Shown: positions 374-15,142 of the stretch, one piece after another | How the letters are laid out: each line of letters opens with the position of its first letter | How positions within the stretch are numbered: position 1 is the first letter of the stretch | NCBI RefSeq assembly: GCF_900167335.1 | Contig: NZ_FUXI01000013.1 | Coordinates: 41,153 to 65,152 of the forward strand | DNA: 24,000 nt | Reading direction: 5' to 3' | Source of the DNA: Pilibacter termitis | GTDB lineage: Bacteria; Bacillota; Bacilli; Lactobacillales; Streptococcaceae | The notes under the pieces: generated by a model | Told to the model about the DNA's origin: nothing | Database searches by the model: none | The model's input: the letters and a program-made list of their open reading frames with translations, nothing else | Made by a program: the position numbers and the translations under genes

Positions 374-1135
374 ATGCTATCGAATTTGTTTTCAAAGAAA
401 AAACTGATGGATGAAGAATTTTCTTTTGATGAAAAAGGATTGATTCCGCACCATGTGGCAGTTATTATGGACGGCAATGGTCGCTGGGCAAAAAAACGAA
501 TGCTCCCACGAATTGCAGGGCATAAAGAAGGTATGGAAGTAGTCAAGAAAATTACAAAATCTGCTAGTATGCTTGGCGTGAAGGTGTTGACCTTGTACGC
601 ATTTTCAACGGAAAATTGGAAACGACCCGATGACGAAGTGAATTTTTTGATGAAACTTCCAGTTGATTTTTTTGACAAGTTTGTTCCTGAACTAATCGAG
701 GAAAATGTCAAAGTGAATGTGATGGGCTACATCAATCAATTGCCTGAACATACAAGAGATGCGGTAAATCGAGCGATAGAGGCAACGAAAGACAATACAG
801 GGATGATTTTAAATTTTGCTCTTAACTACGGTAGTCGCACAGAAATCACGTCAGCTGTCGCAGCCATTGTGCAATCAGGCATTTCAGCAGATGAAGTGAG
901 CGAAGAGGTGATTAGTGAGCATTTGATGACCAATGGTTTACCAAAAGAATATCGTGACCCTGAGCTTGTCATTCGTACAAGCGGTGAGGAGCGTATTAGC
1001 AATTTCTTACTCTGGCAAATTGCATATAGTGAATTTTATTTTACAGAAGAACTATGGCCAGATTTTAATGAGGAAAGTTTCAAACTAGCCCTCGGGAATT
1101 TCCAAAAGAGAAATCGACGATTTGGTGGAGTGTAA
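374..1135 (+). CDS. uppS: Undecaprenyl-diphosphate synthase (cis-isoprenyl transferase)
   Basis: 253-aa ORF with RBS aaggagagagg. It carries the motifs [13 protein letters not shown] and [21 protein letters not shown] typical of UppS. Confidence 0.95.
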
Positions 1136-1142
1136 GGATAGA

Positions 1143-1757
1143 GAAAAGCGTAGAAGTGCGTTTTGAAGTCTGTGGCAGTGAGCCATGTCGTTTATTTAAT
1201 CGAAACGTAGTTTCGATCGACATTGCGAACAGCCACCAGACTTCAGCACTTCGTAGCTAGACAAAGAAAAGCGGAGAGGGGCGTTTTGAAGTTTGTGGCA
1301 GTGAGCCGTACCGTTTACTTGCTAGAAACGGTAGTTTCTAGCGGTACTGCGAACAGCCACCAAACTTCAGCCCCTCGTAGCTAGACATAGAAAAGCGTAG
1401 AGGGGCGGTCAGTGGCTTGTCGCAGTGAGCCATGCCATTTACTTGCCTGAAGCAGAGCTTCAGGTGGCATTGCGAACAGCGACCAAGCCACTGCCCCTCG
1501 TAGCTAGACAAAGAAAAGCGAAATGGTGCGTTTTGGAGTTTGCAACAGTGAACACTGTCGTTTATTTACTAGAAACGTAAGTTTCTAGCGACATTGTGAG
1601 TAGTTGCCAGACTTCAGCCCCTCGTAGCTAGACAAAGAAAAGCGTAGAAGTGCGTTTTGAAGTCTGTGGCAGTGAGCCATGTCGTTTATTTAATCGAAAC
1701 GCAGTTTCGATCGACATTGCGAACAGCCACCAGACTTCAGCACTTCGTAGCTAGACA
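1143..1757 (+). repeat. Tandem array of five ~123-bp imperfect-palindrome (long hairpin) units
   Basis: Unit starts, anchored on gaaaagcg, are 1143, 1266, 1390, 1513 and 1637. The junction cgtagctagacaaagaaaagcg is conserved. Each unit is self-complementary over about 100 nt. Units 1 and 5 differ at one base. See findings. Confidence 0.92.
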
Positions 1758-1783
1758 AAGAAATAGAAAAGGAGCTGAAAAAC

Positions 1784-2581
1784 TTGAGAACAAGAGTAAT
1801 AACAGCAGTTGTTGCATTGATTGTGTTTATTCCTGTTATTGTAGCAGGAGGGATTTTTATTGAGGTGCTTACAAGTCTTATGGCAGCAGTCGGTGTGTAT
1901 GAATTATTTAAAATGAGAAATTTAGACATTAGAAGTGCCGAGGGGGCATTGGCGATTTTAGGAAGTGTTTTTCTTGTATTTCCAGTCAAAAAATATTTAA
2001 CCTTTTTGCCAACAGACGCAAATTGGGTGCTATTTTTCCTTGTCGTTCTAGGTTTTTTGGCAATGGTTGTGATTTCTAAAAATGAATACACATTTGAAGA
2101 AGCTGGATTCCCTATTTTGACGAGTTTATATGTTGGTTGCGGGTTTCAATATCTCGTTCAAGCACGTGGAAAAAGTTTGCTTGCATTGCTTTTTGCGTTA
2201 TTTATCGTTTGGGCAACGGATATTGGAGCATACATGATTGGTAGACAATACGGAAGTCGTAAATTGGCACCGTCTATTTCGCCGAATAAAACAATTGAAG
2301 GCTCTCTTGGTGGAGTAGTTTGTGCAGTTGTCGTTGCATTGATTTTTCTACTTATTTATCCAGCAAAAGAAGTATTTGATAAAAGTTTACCAATTATGCT
2401 ATTGTTTACAGCGATTTTCTCCATGTTCGGTCAGTTTGGCGATTTGGTGGAAAGTGCAATCAAACGTTTCTACGGTGTAAAAGATTCCGGAAATATTTTA
2501 CCGGGACATGGTGGCATTTTGGATAGATTTGATAGCCTATTGTTTGTGTTTCCAGTTATGCACTTGTTTGGGTTATTCTAA
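1784..2581 (+). CDS. cdsA: Phosphatidate cytidylyltransferase (CDP-diglyceride synthase)
   Basis: TTG start preceded by RBS aaaggag (1768-1774). The protein is polytopic membrane. It has the C-terminal signature SAIKRFYGVKDSGNILPGHGGILDRFD. Confidence 0.93.
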   Translation: MRTRVITAVVALIVFIPVIVAGGIFIEVLTSLMAAVGVYELFKMRNLDIRSAEGALAILGSVFLVFPVKKYLTFLPTDANWVLFFLVVLGFLAMVVISKNEYTFEEAGFPILTSLYVGCGFQYLVQARGKSLLALLFALFIVWATDIGAYMIGRQYGSRKLAPSISPNKTIEGSLGGVVCAVVVALIFLLIYPAKEVFDKSLPIMLLFTAIFSMFGQFGDLVESAIKRFYGVKDSGNILPGHGGILDRFDSLLFVFPVMHLFGLF

Positions 2582-14865: not shown

Positions 14866-14894
14866 TTGTTTAATCACAGGAGTTAGTTTAGAAT
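14866..14894 (+). promoter_or_regulatory. Putative sigma-A promoter of the toxin mRNA
   Basis: TTGTTT (14866-14871), a 17-nt spacer, then TAGAAT (14889-14894). Confidence 0.5.
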
Positions 14895-15008
14895 GGTTTT
14901 AGGGAACGAAAGTTTAATTGACGGTAGCTAAATACTTTTTGAGAGGAAGTGATGCCTATGAAAGTAGGATTTAAAGTTCGCATTCTAACGAAAGGATTAG
15001 CACTTAAA

Positions 15009-15104
15009 ATGACTGTTGCAGAGGCTCTGTCATTGATGTTAGCGTTTGGCTCTTTTGTCGCAACGCTCATCTTTGGTATCCTTGAAGCCAACAAGAAAAA
15101 GTAA
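15009..15104 (+). CDS. Small hydrophobic peptide, TxpA/BsrE/BsrH-like type I toxin ('putative holin-like toxin' family)
   Basis: Not in the ORF track. ATG 15009 to TAA 15102-15104 gives the 31-aa peptide MTVAEALSLMLAFGSFVATLIFGILEANKKK, with one TM helix and a KKK tail. It resembles B. subtilis BsrE (MSTFQALMLMLAIGSFIIALL..., from memory). In-frame upstream ATGs at 14952 and 14958 (RBS gagaggaag) would give 50- or 48-aa forms. Confidence 0.65.
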   Translation: MTVAEALSLMLAFGSFVATLIFGILEANKKK

Positions 15105-15142
15105 AAAACCCGTCTCTACTTTAGCCAGTTGACGGGTTTTTT
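15103..15142. terminator. Bidirectional rho-independent terminator
   Basis: Stem aacccgtc(15107-15114)/gacgggtt(15131-15138), flanked by A6 on the left and T6 on the right. It therefore works on both strands. Confidence 0.8.

What the first reader, a model, noticed from the sequence alone, without database searches (positions are those of the whole stretch)
1143..1757. Five tandem ~123-bp hairpin units with compensatory covariation, wedged inside the uppS-cdsA operon
Location: the uppS stop (1135) and cdsA start (1784) are 648 bp apart, while the other junctions in this operon are 3-50 bp. Five head-to-tail units fill the gap, starting at 1143, 1266, 1390, 1513 and 1637 with a period of 123-124 bp.

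Structure: on the + (mRNA-sense) strand each unit folds into one ~100-nt hairpin (unit 1: 1153-1252) with four helices:
- A: gaagtgc/gcacttc
- B: tgaagtctg+tggc / gcca-c-cagacttca
- C: atgtcg/cgacat
- D: atcgaaac/gtttcgat

Covariation: between units the helix sequences change but remain complementary.
- A becomes gaggggc/gcccctc in units 2 and 3.
- B becomes tgaagtttg/caaacttca in unit 2.
- B becomes cagtggcttg+tcgc / gcga-c-caagccactg in unit 3, where most bases changed on both arms.
- C becomes gtaccg/cggtac in unit 2 and atgcca/tggcat in unit 3.
- D becomes gctagaaac/gtttctagc, cctgaagc/gcttcagg or ctagaaac/gtttctag.
- Unit 4 keeps helix B partly through G-U wobbles (tggagtttg against cagacttca). 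These pair only in + strand RNA.

Other properties: no unit has a trailing T-tract, so they are not terminators. I see no promoter in any unit and no conserved ORF, so the array should be co-transcribed with two essential envelope genes. I do not recognise it as a named RNA family or repeat.

Hypotheses (inference):
- an mRNA processing or stability module that uncouples uppS and cdsA expression
- an array of processed small RNAs
- a multi-site protein sponge
- a REP/ERIC/EFAR-type palindromic element amplified in situ
Basis: seen in the sequence. Interest (0 to 1): 0.85.

Follow-up and report, generated by a model that had tools for sequence, protein, structure and literature searches.

The report
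Mobile hairpin repeats behind uppS
Five head-to-tail copies of a ~122-base hairpin-forming repeat sit between two cell-envelope genes of Pilibacter termitis; they belong to an apparently uncatalogued mobile repeat family found across Bacilli that lands directly behind gene ends, so the array looks like a parasite-like insertion rather than a purpose-built regulator.

Summary
Window 1143-1757 holds five tandem ~122-nt units. Each folds into a long hairpin, and 19 of 41 pairs show double-sided (compensatory) changes between units.

It is not specific to this operon. A pattern taken from the unit ends found 46 loci in 27 Bacilli genomes. A covariance model found 110 copies there, with conserved ends (GAAAAGCG(G)AG ... 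TCGTAGCTAGACA) around a hairpin that varies in sequence but not in structure.

Copies form head-to-tail arrays of 1-5 units. In 30 of 53 arrays the first unit starts within 12 nt after the stop codon of a co-oriented ORF (4% expected). Others start 3-4 nt after a tRNA or 23S rRNA gene. Most arrays end in a truncated 5' unit.

Two filled/empty comparisons (rpsO, purU) show precise insertion between the stop codon and a terminator whose 5' shoulder mimics the unit's 5' end. Relatives have uppS-cdsA spacers of 15-86 nt and no array.

The sense strand folds better in 95 of 98 copies. I found no Rfam match, no paper and no linked gene.

Verdict: an undescribed REP/BOX-like mobile hairpin repeat that homes to gene ends, amplified in place and passively co-transcribed. 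A dedicated uppS/cdsA regulatory role is not supported. RNA versus ssDNA as the folded form, and the mobilising machinery, remain open.

The parts
374..1135 (+). uppS (undecaprenyl-diphosphate synthase). Its stop codon TAA is at 1133-1135. It is the upstream host gene of the array.
   Evidence: ORF list. Pfam PF01255, E=2.7e-85. The C-terminus ...[11 protein letters not shown] matches that of relative L063.
1136..1142 (+). 7-nt A/G-rich spacer 'ggataga' between the uppS stop and the first unit. It contains a second in-frame TAG.
   Evidence: Sequence. The five bases before first units are A-rich family-wide.
1143..1263 (+). Unit 1. The 5' end is GAAAAGCGTAGA, followed by a long hairpin and the 3' end TCGTAGCTAGACA.
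   Evidence: CM R1 69.4 bits. Fold -53.9 kcal/mol, z -8.5.
1266..1387 (+). Unit 2.
   Evidence: CM 72.3 bits. Fold -61.0 kcal/mol, z -7.2. 83% identical to unit 1, with compensatory changes.
1390..1510 (+). Unit 3, the most divergent. Most of helix B is replaced on both arms.
   Evidence: CM 67.7 bits. Fold -66.1 kcal/mol. 66-77% identical to the other units.
1513..1634 (+). Unit 4, a decaying copy. The outer helix is partly broken, and G-U pairs make it fold clearly better on the + strand.
   Evidence: CM 54.6 bits. Fold -38.3 kcal/mol on + against -28.2 on -. G-U cells in helix 3.
1637..1757 (+). Unit 5, a near-exact copy of unit 1 (one difference, at 1208 in unit 1). This indicates a recent local duplication.
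   Evidence: Identity 98.4%. CM 68.8 bits.
1764..1774 (+). 'TAGAAAAGGAG'. This is the resident junction sequence: the probable ancestral stop codon plus the cdsA Shine-Dalgarno (AAAGGAG at 1768-1774, 9 nt before TTG). It mimics the unit's 5' end (TA)GAAAAGCGGAG. It stands in the position of the truncated terminal unit seen at other arrays and is the inferred target of insertion.
   Evidence: Sequence. Relatives read ...gtaTAGaaagaggagataggtGTG (L063) and TAGaaaaagaggaagattagGTG (L062). The terminal truncated units of other arrays are shown.
1784..2581 (+). cdsA (phosphatidate cytidylyltransferase), TTG start. It is the first gene downstream of the array, followed by dxr, rseP and proS.
   Evidence: No promoter-like site lies between 1136 and 1783.

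Best explanation
**What it is.** The array is a local expansion of a small, non-coding, mobile hairpin repeat. The family is spread patchily through Bacilli, in both Bacillales and Lactobacillales.

**Unit anatomy.** A unit is about 116-131 nt.
- The single-stranded ends are conserved and asymmetric: 5' GAAAAGCG(G/U/A)AG and 3' UCGUAGCUAGACA.
- A 3-bp closing helix (AGC/GCU) is followed by a 3x3 internal loop (GNA over GUA).
- A 7-bp helix is followed by a conserved 5' bulge (CGYUU-AG).
- The rest is a long hairpin whose sequence is free to vary as long as it pairs.

**Where it inserts.** Units insert head to tail, in the sense orientation, immediately behind the end of a gene. Insertion happens at resident sequences that resemble the unit's own 5' end. 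These are typically the A-tract-plus-GCG 'shoulder' of an intrinsic terminator that abuts the stop codon. In this window the resident sequence is the stop/Shine-Dalgarno junction TAGAAAAGGAG of uppS-cdsA. After insertion the Pilibacter array diverged and was partly re-duplicated, which is why unit 5 is a copy of unit 1.

**What is shown.**
- Family membership and dispersal.
- Structural covariation.
- Abutment to gene ends.
- Precise insertion at two polymorphic sites.
- Better folding of the sense strand.

**What is inferred.**
- The hairpin and the conserved ends are kept because the element's own propagation needs them. Propagation would work either through recognition of the folded sense strand by an unidentified trans-acting enzyme, or through hairpin-stalled template switching onto and off a donor array.
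- In the uppS operon the units are passively co-transcribed as five stable hairpins that do not terminate transcription.
- These hairpins leave the cdsA ribosome-binding site free. At most they act as 3'-exonuclease barriers or endonuclease sites, which is a by-product rather than an evolved control of uppS/cdsA.
For: **Dispersal.** The pattern GAAAAGCG-N95-112-TCGTAGCTAGACA hit 46 loci in 27 genomes, all Bacilli. CM R1 found 110 copies in 381 kb.

**Structure.**
- 92.5% of 2300 pair cells are standard pairs, against 62.9% in shuffles and 31-48% when partners are slid.
- 707 cells have changes on both sides, against 212 in shuffles.

**Arrays.** Array sizes are 1-5 units. Most arrays end in a truncated 5' unit of about 25-35 nt, often followed by a terminator.

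**Gene-end abutment.**
- 30 of 53 arrays start within 12 nt after the stop codon of a co-oriented ORF of at least 60 codons. The null expectation is 4.1%.
- Others start 3-4 nt after tRNA-Leu or tRNA-Gln.
- Others start 3-4 nt after the 23S rRNA gene and upstream of 5S.

**Mobility and target.**
- Ten Cytobacillus genomes share an identical RpsO. Eight read TAA-tta-GAAAAGCGGGATTTATCCCGCTTTTTT. Two carry one extra unit exactly between the stop codon and that terminator, flanked by (A)GAAAAGCGG on both sides.
- For purU, Ureibacillus xyleni reads TAA|GAAAAAGCGAACTTCG...terminator. U. endophyticus has a 2-unit array starting at that very position, with the terminator retained downstream.
- Near-identical units occur at different loci of one genome, for example L013 and L016 of Salimicrobium halophilum.
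- An orthologous Salimicrobium locus has 1 unit in one species and 5 in another (L026 against L039).

**This window.** Relatives have uppS-cdsA spacers of 15, 17, 24 and 86 nt with no unit. The array is followed by TAGAAAAGGAG, which mimics a unit start.

**No linked gene.** No protein family recurs near the arrays.

**Strand.**
- The sense strand is more stable in 95 of 98 copies, by 7.8 kcal/mol on average.
- G.T-type oppositions number 102 against 53 A.C-type, p=1e-4.

**No terminator or promoter in the array**.
Against: - No mobilising enzyme or autonomous partner was identified.
- The rule that the target mimics the unit's 5' end rests on two filled/empty pairs plus inference for this window. 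It does not obviously explain the tRNA/rRNA spacer copies or the roughly 13 arrays without a downstream partial unit.
- No second copy was seen in the ~35 kb of Pilibacter DNA that could be read.
- The Pilibacter units form their own subfamily. Their interiors are at most 66% identical to any other copy. Dispersal within this genome is therefore not shown.
- Conserved loops, bulges and single-stranded ends, together with the G-U excess, would equally fit selection on the RNA. The 'by-product' claim is inference.
- The weak stem plus T-rich stretch inside units 1, 2 and 5 could cause some attenuation.
Confidence: 0.55

Rival explanations
1. **Host-beneficial RNA cassette.** The folded RNA is what selection sees. 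Placed in 3' UTRs and spacers, the hairpins would block 3'-to-5' exonucleases. The conserved A-rich single-stranded ends would be cut by a host endonuclease of the RNase Y, J or III type. The unit would then be a portable stabiliser and processing signal that the host keeps, as reported for REP in malE-malF and suggested for bcr3.
For: - The sense strand is favoured.
- Unpaired motifs are conserved: the ends, the GNA/GUA loop, the bulge and a U-rich apical loop.
- Copies are tolerated 3-4 nt after tRNA and 23S genes, where the RNA must be removed by processing.
- Many hosts are housekeeping genes.
- B. cereus transcripts carrying bcr3 repeats had longer half-lives (PMC3446304).
Against: - Where a terminator hairpin already follows, an extra hairpin adds little. 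This is the situation at rpsO and purU.
- Presence and absence vary among genomes with identical flanking genes.
- Copies decay: unit 4 here, and L072 is weaker than L073.
- The sense orientation is already explained by the polarity of the target.
- The G.T to A.C ratio is only about 2:1.
Confidence: 0.25
2. **Operon-specific regulatory module.** This is the first reader's lead hypothesis. The array would have evolved to uncouple uppS from cdsA-dxr-rseP-proS expression through processing, differential decay or partial attenuation.
For: - It sits inside an operon of essential envelope genes with no internal promoter detected.
- Three units contain a weak stem followed by a T-rich stretch.
- Five strong hairpins are bound to have some effect on decay or on RNA polymerase.
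Against: - The junction is 15-86 nt long with no unit in the closest relatives found. These are CdsA 65-70% identical and carry the same uppS-cdsA order.
- The same element lies behind unrelated genes and stable RNAs elsewhere.
- Unit 5 is a one-mismatch copy of unit 1, which points to recent neutral amplification.
Confidence: 0.08
3. **Array of small-RNA genes or a multi-site protein sponge.** Each unit would be released as a ~120-nt RNA that acts in trans or titrates a binding protein.
For: - The units are repeated and highly structured, and are joined by conserved A-rich linkers.
- The 3x3 GNA/GUA loop and the bulge are plausible protein-binding sites.
Against: - No unit has its own promoter or terminator.
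- Hairpin sequences differ completely between genomes, so no conserved antisense seed exists.
- The GGA in the 5' motif is absent from 4 of the 5 units here.
- No partner gene is linked.
Confidence: 0.07
4. **Assembly artefact.** The array, or its copy number, would be a mis-assembly of a repeat.
For: A short-read assembly of the same organism breaks at both edges of the array. Units 1 and 5 are almost identical.
Against: - Units 2, 3 and 4 are distinct sequences, 66-83% identical, each with its own compensated helices.
- Both contig ends of the second assembly run into unit sequence at the expected places.
- Arrays of the same design occur in many other genomes.
Confidence: 0.03

Closest known systems
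REP/BIME elements of enterobacteria
   Same: They are extragenic palindromes that lie in 3' UTRs and between cistrons and are co-transcribed. They occur in clusters of variable copy number and form RNA hairpins that can protect upstream mRNA. They are dispersed by a trans-acting enzyme that recognises a folded single strand. (This description is from my own knowledge.)
   Different: - REPs are about 35 nt long and GC-rich, and have a 5' GTAG.
- In BIMEs they alternate in orientation.
- They are tied to RAYT genes in Proteobacteria.
- Here the units are about 121 nt long and strictly head to tail, with asymmetric conserved ends and a variable core.
- Here they occur in Bacilli, with no linked gene.
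Pneumococcal BOX, RUP and SPRITE repeats (PMC3049150)
   Same: They are small non-coding repeats of Firmicutes that fold as RNA stem-loops. They mirror the coding-strand bias. SPRITE is enriched close to the 3' ends of CDSs and resembles a terminator. BOX has an internally repeated module.
   Different: - BOX is boxA-boxB(n)-boxC with TIRs and TSDs.
- SPRITE carries a U-rich tail.
- These repeats are confined to S. pneumoniae/S. mitis and close relatives.
- No empty site was available for SPRITE.
- The present family has no TIR and no U-tail, spans two orders of Bacilli, and has documented filled/empty sites at terminator shoulders.
bcr1-bcr3 repeats of the Bacillus cereus group (PMC3446304)
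   Same: They are MITE-like intergenic repeats of a Bacillus lineage. They are often part of UTRs or intercistronic regions of operons, and bcr3-bearing transcripts are longer-lived.
   Different: The bcr repeats are specific to the B. cereus group and each family has a conserved sequence. They were not reported as head-to-tail arrays that abut stop codons. I could not compare sequences directly.
Integron attC sites
   Same: The logic is the same: conserved short end motifs, a central palindrome that is conserved in structure but not in sequence, folding of one particular strand, and arrangement in arrays. (This description is from my own knowledge.)
   Different: - attC ends are inverse core sites (RYYYAAC ... 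GTTRRRY).
- They flank gene cassettes and need IntI.
- They are rare in Firmicutes.
- None of these features is present here.
Class C (IIC) group II introns
   Same: They home to the neighbourhood of intrinsic terminators behind genes, in the sense orientation (from my own knowledge). A group II intron sits just after the glnA terminator in this same Pilibacter contig.
   Different: Introns are ribozymes, usually with a reverse-transcriptase ORF, and insert after the terminator's U-tract. The present units are 121-nt hairpins that insert in front of the terminator stem.
EFAR repeats of Enterococcus faecalis and mycobacterial MIRUs
   Same: From memory only. EFAR are hairpin-forming repeats, many of them close to stop codons, in an Enterococcaceae genome. 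MIRUs are tandem intercistronic repeats in operons that touch the flanking stop and start codons.
   Different: I could not retrieve either sequence or paper. As I recall, EFAR are about 170 bp long. MIRUs are not long hairpins and carry small ORFs. Membership is untested.

Membership tests
The dispersed hairpin-repeat family defined here (model R1) | A full-length match to a covariance model built from copies in other genera. The model has the conserved 5' and 3' ends and three covarying helices. | tested here: met
   All five window units match positions 1-121 of 121, at 54.6-72.3 bits and E 1e-12 to 1e-17. Caveat: four of the 36 seed sequences were window units. The 32 others come from 23 other genomes.
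The dispersed hairpin-repeat family defined here (model R1) | Sense-oriented placement directly behind a gene end, with a unit-5'-end-like sequence after the array. | tested here: met
   The array starts 7 nt after the uppS stop codon and is followed by TAGAAAAGGAG.
Any Rfam 15 RNA family | A score at or above the family's gathering threshold. | tested here: not met
   There is no hit in 1136-1790 at the gathering threshold. At E<=10 there are only sub-threshold chance-level hits, such as CRISPR-DR20 at 21 bits against a threshold of 42.
Intrinsic (Rho-independent) terminator | A GC-rich hairpin followed directly by a U-tract. | tested here: not met
   The full hairpins end in ...CGUAGCUAGACAAAGAAAAG. 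Only a weak internal 6-bp stem followed by UCGUUUAUUU is flagged, in units 1, 2 and 5.
MITE | Terminal inverted repeats. | tested here: not met
   The ends GAAAAGCG and TAGCTAGACA are not reverse complements of each other. Pairing starts with AGC/GCT, inside the ends.
MITE | A target-site duplication of fixed length. | tested here: inconclusive
   The filled rpsO site is flanked by (A)GAAAAGCGG. That sequence is also the unit's own conserved 5' end and the resident terminator's shoulder. About 13 arrays have no such downstream copy.
MITE | A related autonomous IS with the same ends. | not testable with these tools
   Collection scans allow gaps that vary by at most 30 nt. No transposase recurs in the 8-kb flanks.
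REP/BIME (RAYT-mobilised) | An imperfect palindrome of about 20-40 nt with a 5' GTAG, in alternating orientation within clusters. | tested here: not met
   Units are 116-131 nt long and all head to tail.
REP/BIME (RAYT-mobilised) | A RAYT gene in the genome. | not tested
Nothing recurrent lies next to the arrays.
Integron attC | R''/R' core sites (RYYYAAC ... GTTRRRY), flanking cassette ORFs, and intI nearby. | tested here: not met
   The end motifs differ. Units follow each other with linkers of 1-6 nt and no ORF between them. The neighbours are housekeeping genes.
CRISPR array | Short identical repeats separated by unrelated spacers, with cas genes. | tested here: not met
   The 'spacers' are homologous, self-complementary hairpins. 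There are no cas genes in the window. The CRISPR-DR hit is below threshold.
Type III toxin-antitoxin RNA antitoxin (ToxI-like) | Tandem repeats of about 34-45 nt directly upstream of an endoribonuclease toxin gene. | tested here: not met
   The period is 123-124 nt. The downstream gene is cdsA (PF01148).
EFAR (Enterococcus faecalis repeats) | Sequence similarity to the published EFAR consensus. | not testable with these tools
   The paper and consensus are not in the searchable library. No E. faecalis locus was hit by the end pattern.

The most novel reading that the evidence does not exclude
This would be a new class of non-coding mobile cassette in Bacilli that works on attC-like logic. Short conserved ends and a hairpin that is conserved in structure but free in sequence would be read on one strand by an enzyme not yet identified. 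The cassette would home to the first bases behind a gene, at terminator shoulders, Shine-Dalgarno junctions and tRNA/rRNA 3' flanks, by matching its own 5' end. It would build head-to-tail arrays that end in a characteristic truncated unit. Transcripts would then carry excisable hairpin RNAs. A bolder version, in which spread goes through an RNA intermediate joined to RNA 3' ends, is not excluded, but nothing supports it.
Probability: 0.3. Interest if true: 0.75.

Novelty: new variant of a known kind. Interest (0 to 1): 0.55.

Why it matters
**Annotation and mobile DNA.** If the family is as undescribed as the searches suggest, it adds a widespread repeat to Bacilli, including Cytobacillus, Ureibacillus, Salimicrobium, Anoxybacillus and enterococcal relatives. 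Annotation pipelines and Rfam currently miss it. It breaks short-read assemblies and inflates intergenic regions inside essential operons. Its precise placement between stop codons and terminators makes it a clean natural system for asking how non-coding DNA finds 'safe' transcribed sites. The same system could show how a palindrome keeps its structure while its sequence turns over.

**RNA biology.** Each insertion is a ready-made experiment on what a 120-nt stable hairpin does to a 3' UTR, an operon junction or an rRNA/tRNA spacer.

**This window.** The long uppS-cdsA gap should not be read as an evolved regulatory region without experimental evidence.

Tried and rejected
**RNA families.** Rfam at the gathering threshold and at E<=10 gave no family.

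**Literature.**
- String searches for the conserved 3' motif in DNA and RNA spelling returned only two unrelated papers.
- Keyword searches for EFAR, MITEs in Bacillaceae and interspersed repeats in Bacillales gave nothing on this element.

**Other collections.**
- Phage association: the viral-contig scan found 0.
- Plasmid association: blastn of the array against PLSDB found 0.
- A metagenome scan specific to the Pilibacter subfamily found 0.
- The general metagenome scan gave 4 real copies and 5 chance matches. The chance matches fold poorly (about -28 kcal/mol, about 27 bits). This fits my rough estimate of about 5 chance hits for the genome scan too.

**Linked gene.** An all-against-all BLASTP of ORFs in the 46 loci found no recurrent family.

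**Conserved ORF.** Unit lengths are not multiples of three, and small ORFs differ between units.

**Motifs considered and dropped.**
- K-turn or sarcin-ricin reading of the internal loop: dropped on inspection. The loop is a symmetric 3x3 GNA/GUA.
- CsrA-type GGA sponge: the GGA is missing in 4 of 5 units.
- A fixed tetranucleotide target as in IS200/IS605: the five bases upstream are only A/T-rich.

**Looking for more Pilibacter copies.** Exact look-ups of UppS and CdsA from the first ATG/TTG failed, because the gene callers used other starts. Later look-ups added only about 11 kb of Pilibacter DNA, with no further copy.

**Strand test.** A first G-U count on MFE structures was internally inconsistent between strands. 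I replaced it with a strand-neutral alignment of the two arms.
Full report
**1. The observation**

The window comes from Pilibacter termitis (Enterococcaceae). Nine window proteins match that species' records exactly, and the lineage is given.

The gene order is obg (3' end), a bidirectional terminator, uppS (374-1135), the array, cdsA (1784-2581, TTG start), dxr, rseP and proS. The remaining junctions in this run are 3, 4 and 48 nt long. The uppS-cdsA gap is 648 nt.

- Tandem Repeats Finder reports 1142-1763, period 124, 5.0 copies.
- Each unit folds on the + strand into one long hairpin, at -54, -61, -66, -38 and -54 kcal/mol. The z-scores are -7 to -8.5, except unit 4 at -3.2.
- The - strand is weaker in every unit, most strongly in unit 4.
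- On the five-unit alignment, 41 pairs are 98% paired. The figure is 87% in column shuffles and 28-41% with slid partners.
- Nineteen pairs change on both sides, and 0 of 500 shuffles reach that number.
- Units 1 and 5 differ at one base. The other unit pairs are 66-83% identical.

**2. It is not a one-off**

Rfam 15 has nothing for it.

I took the two invariant ends of the units as a pattern (GAAAAGCG, 95-112 nt, TCGTAGCTAGACA). Scanning one genome per prokaryotic species gave 46 loci in 27 genomes, all of them Bacilli:
- Salimicrobium, with 12 loci in one genome
- Ureibacillus, Lysinibacillus, Cytobacillus, Metabacillus, Peribacillus, Robertmurraya and Siminovitchia
- Terribacillus, Virgibacillus, Marinococcus, Guptibacillus, and Anoxybacillus/Anoxybacteroides
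- several MAGs, and Enterococcus sp. PF1-24

About five chance hits are expected by my arithmetic. The metagenome scan did return five poorly folding chance matches next to four real copies.

Between the conserved ends the sequences are unrelated from genus to genus, yet every one folds the same way:
- four unpaired bases
- a 3-bp helix (AGC/GCU)
- a symmetric 3x3 loop (GNA over GUA)
- a 7-bp helix
- a conserved 5' bulge (CGYUU, then AG)
- a long hairpin

A covariance model built from 36 copies finds 110 copies in the 381 kb in hand, but only the five known ones in the window.

On those 110 copies:
- 92.5% of pair cells are standard pairs, against 63% shuffled and 31-48% slid.
- 707 cells carry double-sided changes, against 212 expected.

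The structure is what is conserved.

**3. Where the copies sit**

Copies form head-to-tail arrays of 1 to 5 units: 22, 20, 10, 2 and 2 arrays respectively. The linkers are 1-6 nt long.

- In 30 of 53 arrays the first unit begins within 12 nt of the stop codon of a co-oriented ORF of at least 60 codons. At random positions this happens in 4.1% of cases. Most gaps are -1 to +5 nt, and in several the TAG stop is completed by the unit's first G.
- The host genes are unrelated to each other. They include pyrG, dnaK, argS, smc, ccpA, purU, rpsO and qcrB.
- Other copies begin 3-4 nt after tRNA-Leu or tRNA-Gln genes inside tRNA operons.
- Others begin 3-4 nt after the last base of the 23S rRNA gene, ahead of 5S.
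- About three quarters of the arrays end with an extra unit that is truncated at its 3' side. This partial unit covers the 5' motif, the 5' arm and the bulge, about 25-35 nt, and a terminator often follows.
- A terminator-like site lies within 140 nt downstream in 23 of 52 arrays, against 20% of random windows.
- No protein family recurs near the arrays.
- None was found on viral contigs or plasmids.

**4. Direct evidence for insertion, and for the target**

*rpsO.* Ten Cytobacillus genomes encode an identical ribosomal protein S15.
- In eight of them the sequence after rpsO reads TAA tta GAAAAGCGGGATTTATCCCGCTTTTTT. That is the stop codon, three bases, then the terminator.
- In two the rpsO-pnpA spacer is 124-125 nt longer.
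- The extra DNA is exactly one unit, lying between the stop codon and the intact terminator. (A)GAAAAGCGG is present on both sides. On the left it is the unit's own 5' end, and on the right it is the terminator's shoulder.
- The two filled genomes are no closer to each other in the flank than to the empty ones. Their units are 89.5% identical, against 95.6% for the flank.

*purU.*
- In Ureibacillus xyleni, purU ends TAA|GAAAAAGCGAACTTCG...CGAGGTTCGCTTTTTT.
- In U. endophyticus a two-unit array starts at exactly that base, so the stop becomes TA+G. The terminator survives downstream of the array.

*Other signs of turnover.* Units at different loci of one genome can be nearly identical, as L013 and L016 are. 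An orthologous Salimicrobium locus carries one unit in one species and five in another.

*Conclusion from these cases.* The element is mobile, or at least copied between loci. In the two cases that can be read, it lands where resident DNA already looks like its own 5' end. In Firmicutes, the A-tract plus GCG start of a terminator commonly follows the stop codon directly. That explains three features together: the hugging of gene ends, the strict sense orientation, and the unit-like sequence after the array.

**5. The window's own locus**

The closest CdsA relatives I could fetch are 65-70% identical and have the same uppS-cdsA(-dxr)-rseP-proS order. Their uppS-cdsA spacers are 15, 17, 24 and 86 nt, with no unit.

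One of them reads ...GGTGGTGTA TAG aaagaggagataggt GTG. The same UppS C-terminus as in Pilibacter is followed by a stop codon and the Shine-Dalgarno sequence.

In Pilibacter the array is followed by aaa TAG AAAAGGAG ctgaaaaac TTG (1764-1786). This looks like that ancestral stop-plus-SD junction, and it also mimics (TA)GAAAAGCGGAG.

I infer that a unit, or a short array, entered at this mimic. A new TAA stop (1133-1135) now closes uppS. The array later diverged, and its first unit was copied to the end to give unit 5.

The cdsA Shine-Dalgarno sequence (1768-1774) lies outside the last hairpin. No promoter-like or proper terminator-like site lies in the array. cdsA and the genes behind it must therefore be read through the five hairpins.

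**6. Which strand, and RNA or DNA?**

- Folding energies favour the sense strand in 95 of 98 copies, by 7.8 kcal/mol on average.
- I aligned each 5' arm with the reverse complement of its 3' arm, which is neutral to strand. In 60 non-redundant units this gives 102 G.T-type against 53 A.C-type oppositions (p=1e-4).

The folded strand is therefore the sense strand. That fits RNA, and the element is certainly transcribed wherever it sits in an operon or a 3' UTR. It also fits single-stranded DNA of the same strand. G.T is the mildest mismatch there too, and sense orientation is already imposed by the polarity of the target. The ratio of about 2:1 is modest. I cannot decide between the two.

**7. 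Mechanism: what I commit to**

Most likely (0.55) this is a selfish, non-coding mobile repeat.
- The hairpin and the conserved ends are needed for its own copying.
- Copying would work either through an unidentified enzyme that reads the folded strand, as IntI reads attC or RAYT reads REP, or through template switching.
- Template switching would be provoked by hairpin stalling. It would enter a donor array at the GAAAAGCG homology and leave it about 30 nt into the next unit, just before the strong inner hairpin. This would also explain the truncated last unit.
- In the uppS operon the RNA hairpins are then a tolerated by-product. They do not terminate transcription and they leave the cdsA ribosome-binding site free. 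They may act as exonuclease barriers or cleavage sites.

The main rival (0.25) is that the RNA hairpin with its A-rich single-stranded ends is itself useful to the host, as a portable stabiliser and processing signal.
- In favour: the conserved unpaired motifs, and the tolerance of copies in rRNA and tRNA operons.
- In favour by analogy: B. cereus transcripts with bcr3 repeats live longer (PMC3446304).
- Against: presence/absence polymorphism, decaying copies, and insertion in front of terminators that already protect the 3' end.

The remaining readings rank lower.

| Reading | Confidence | Main objection |
|---|---|---|
| Regulator dedicated to uppS/cdsA | 0.08 | Dispersal of the element, and its absence from relatives' uppS-cdsA junctions |
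| sRNA genes or protein sponge | 0.07 | No promoters, no conserved core sequence, no partner gene |
| Assembly artefact | 0.03 | Distinct, individually compensated units. The exact copy number does need long reads, because a short-read assembly breaks at both edges |

**8. Comparison with what is known**

The element works like the small palindromic repeats of bacteria: REP/BIME, BOX/RUP/SPRITE (PMC3049150), bcr1-3, Correia and ERIC. In its 'conserved ends, free but paired core, one strand' logic it resembles integron attC sites.

It fails the defining features of each that I could test:
- no terminal inverted repeats
- not 35-nt REPs in alternating orientation
- no boxA/B/C modules
- no U-tail
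- no attC core sites
- no cas or toxin genes

This is the main risk to the novelty claim.

I therefore file it as a new variant of a known kind. The kind is small structured interspersed repeats. The distinctive traits are:
- end motifs conserved across two orders of Bacilli
- strictly head-to-tail arrays with a truncated terminal unit
- homing to the first bases behind genes, at sequences that mimic its own 5' end

**9. Limits**

- Only 35 kb of Pilibacter DNA could be read, so dispersal within this genome is unproven.
- The genome scan required exact ends, so the conservation of the ends and the taxonomic range are biased by ascertainment. The model hits inside the same loci do show variants such as GGAAAGTG and CGCAGCTAGA.
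- Gene calls in the related loci are my own ORF heuristics.
- The target rule rests on two polymorphic sites plus this locus.

Noticed in passing
window 14887-15106 (+): There is a match to the Listeria sRNA family rli28 (RF01492, 53.9 bits against a gathering score of 45). It overlaps a 50-codon ORF (14952-15103) that hits Pfam Hol_Tox, 'putative holin-like toxin' (E=1.2e-12). The region lies between two terminator-like hairpins. It looks like a small toxin (type I TA-like) locus annotated as an sRNA family.
   Followed up: partly
L061 4621-4781 (Pilibacter contig, about 1.5 kb beyond the window's right end, after glnA): A group II intron (RF02001 D1-D4, 93 bits) begins about 100 nt after the glnA terminator, and the short-read contig ends inside it. 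This is a second terminator-proximal mobile element in the same genome. It also means a reverse transcriptase may be present.
   Followed up: partly
window 1136-1790, compared with L060 10553-10581 and L047 1-15: An independent short-read assembly of the same strain ends 29 nt into unit 1 on one contig and starts 15 nt before the end of unit 5 on another. The number of units (5) is therefore not independently confirmed.
   Followed up: yes
unit 5' parts, e.g. window 1145-1166; L039 4735-4762: The conserved 5' motif AAGCGG and the conserved 'bulge' CCGCUU (CGUUU in the window) can pair with each other. They form a small alternative hairpin that competes with the long hairpin. It looks like a terminator stem whose U-tract is replaced by UAGAAAC. 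The truncated terminal units consist of just this piece. Because both sides are invariant, no covariation test was possible.
   Followed up: partly
L002, L009, L031, L043, L045 (Anoxybacillus / Anoxybacteroides): This is a subfamily with the same ends but a branched core. It has an extra 8-bp hairpin (CCUUGGC...GCCAAGG) before the main stem. Model scores are low (about 32 bits) but folds are strong (-47 to -65 kcal/mol).
   Followed up: no
L027/L073, L072, L054, L056 (downstream of rpsO): The site just after the rpsO stop codon is occupied in Cytobacillus and in two metagenome contigs by units of different subfamilies. Either the site is an insertion hot spot or resident units get replaced.
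   Followed up: partly
L028 1410-1564, 2457-2626, 2779-2948; L017 3421-3584, 4549-4710: These tRNA operons contain gaps of about 155-170 nt. Several start with what looks like the 5' half of a tRNA (e.g. GCCGGTGTAGCTCAATTGGTAGAGCACG), followed by about 110 nt of unrelated, moderately structured sequence. There is no Rfam, ARAGORN or R1 match. Origin unknown.
   Followed up: partly
window 1171-1187, 1294-1310, 1665-1681 (+): Inside units 1, 2 and 5, a weak 6-bp stem (UGUGGC/GCCAUG, two of its pairs wobble) is followed by UCGUUUAUUU and is flagged as terminator-like by the consensus scan. It could cause pausing or slight attenuation before the long hairpin closes.
   Followed up: no
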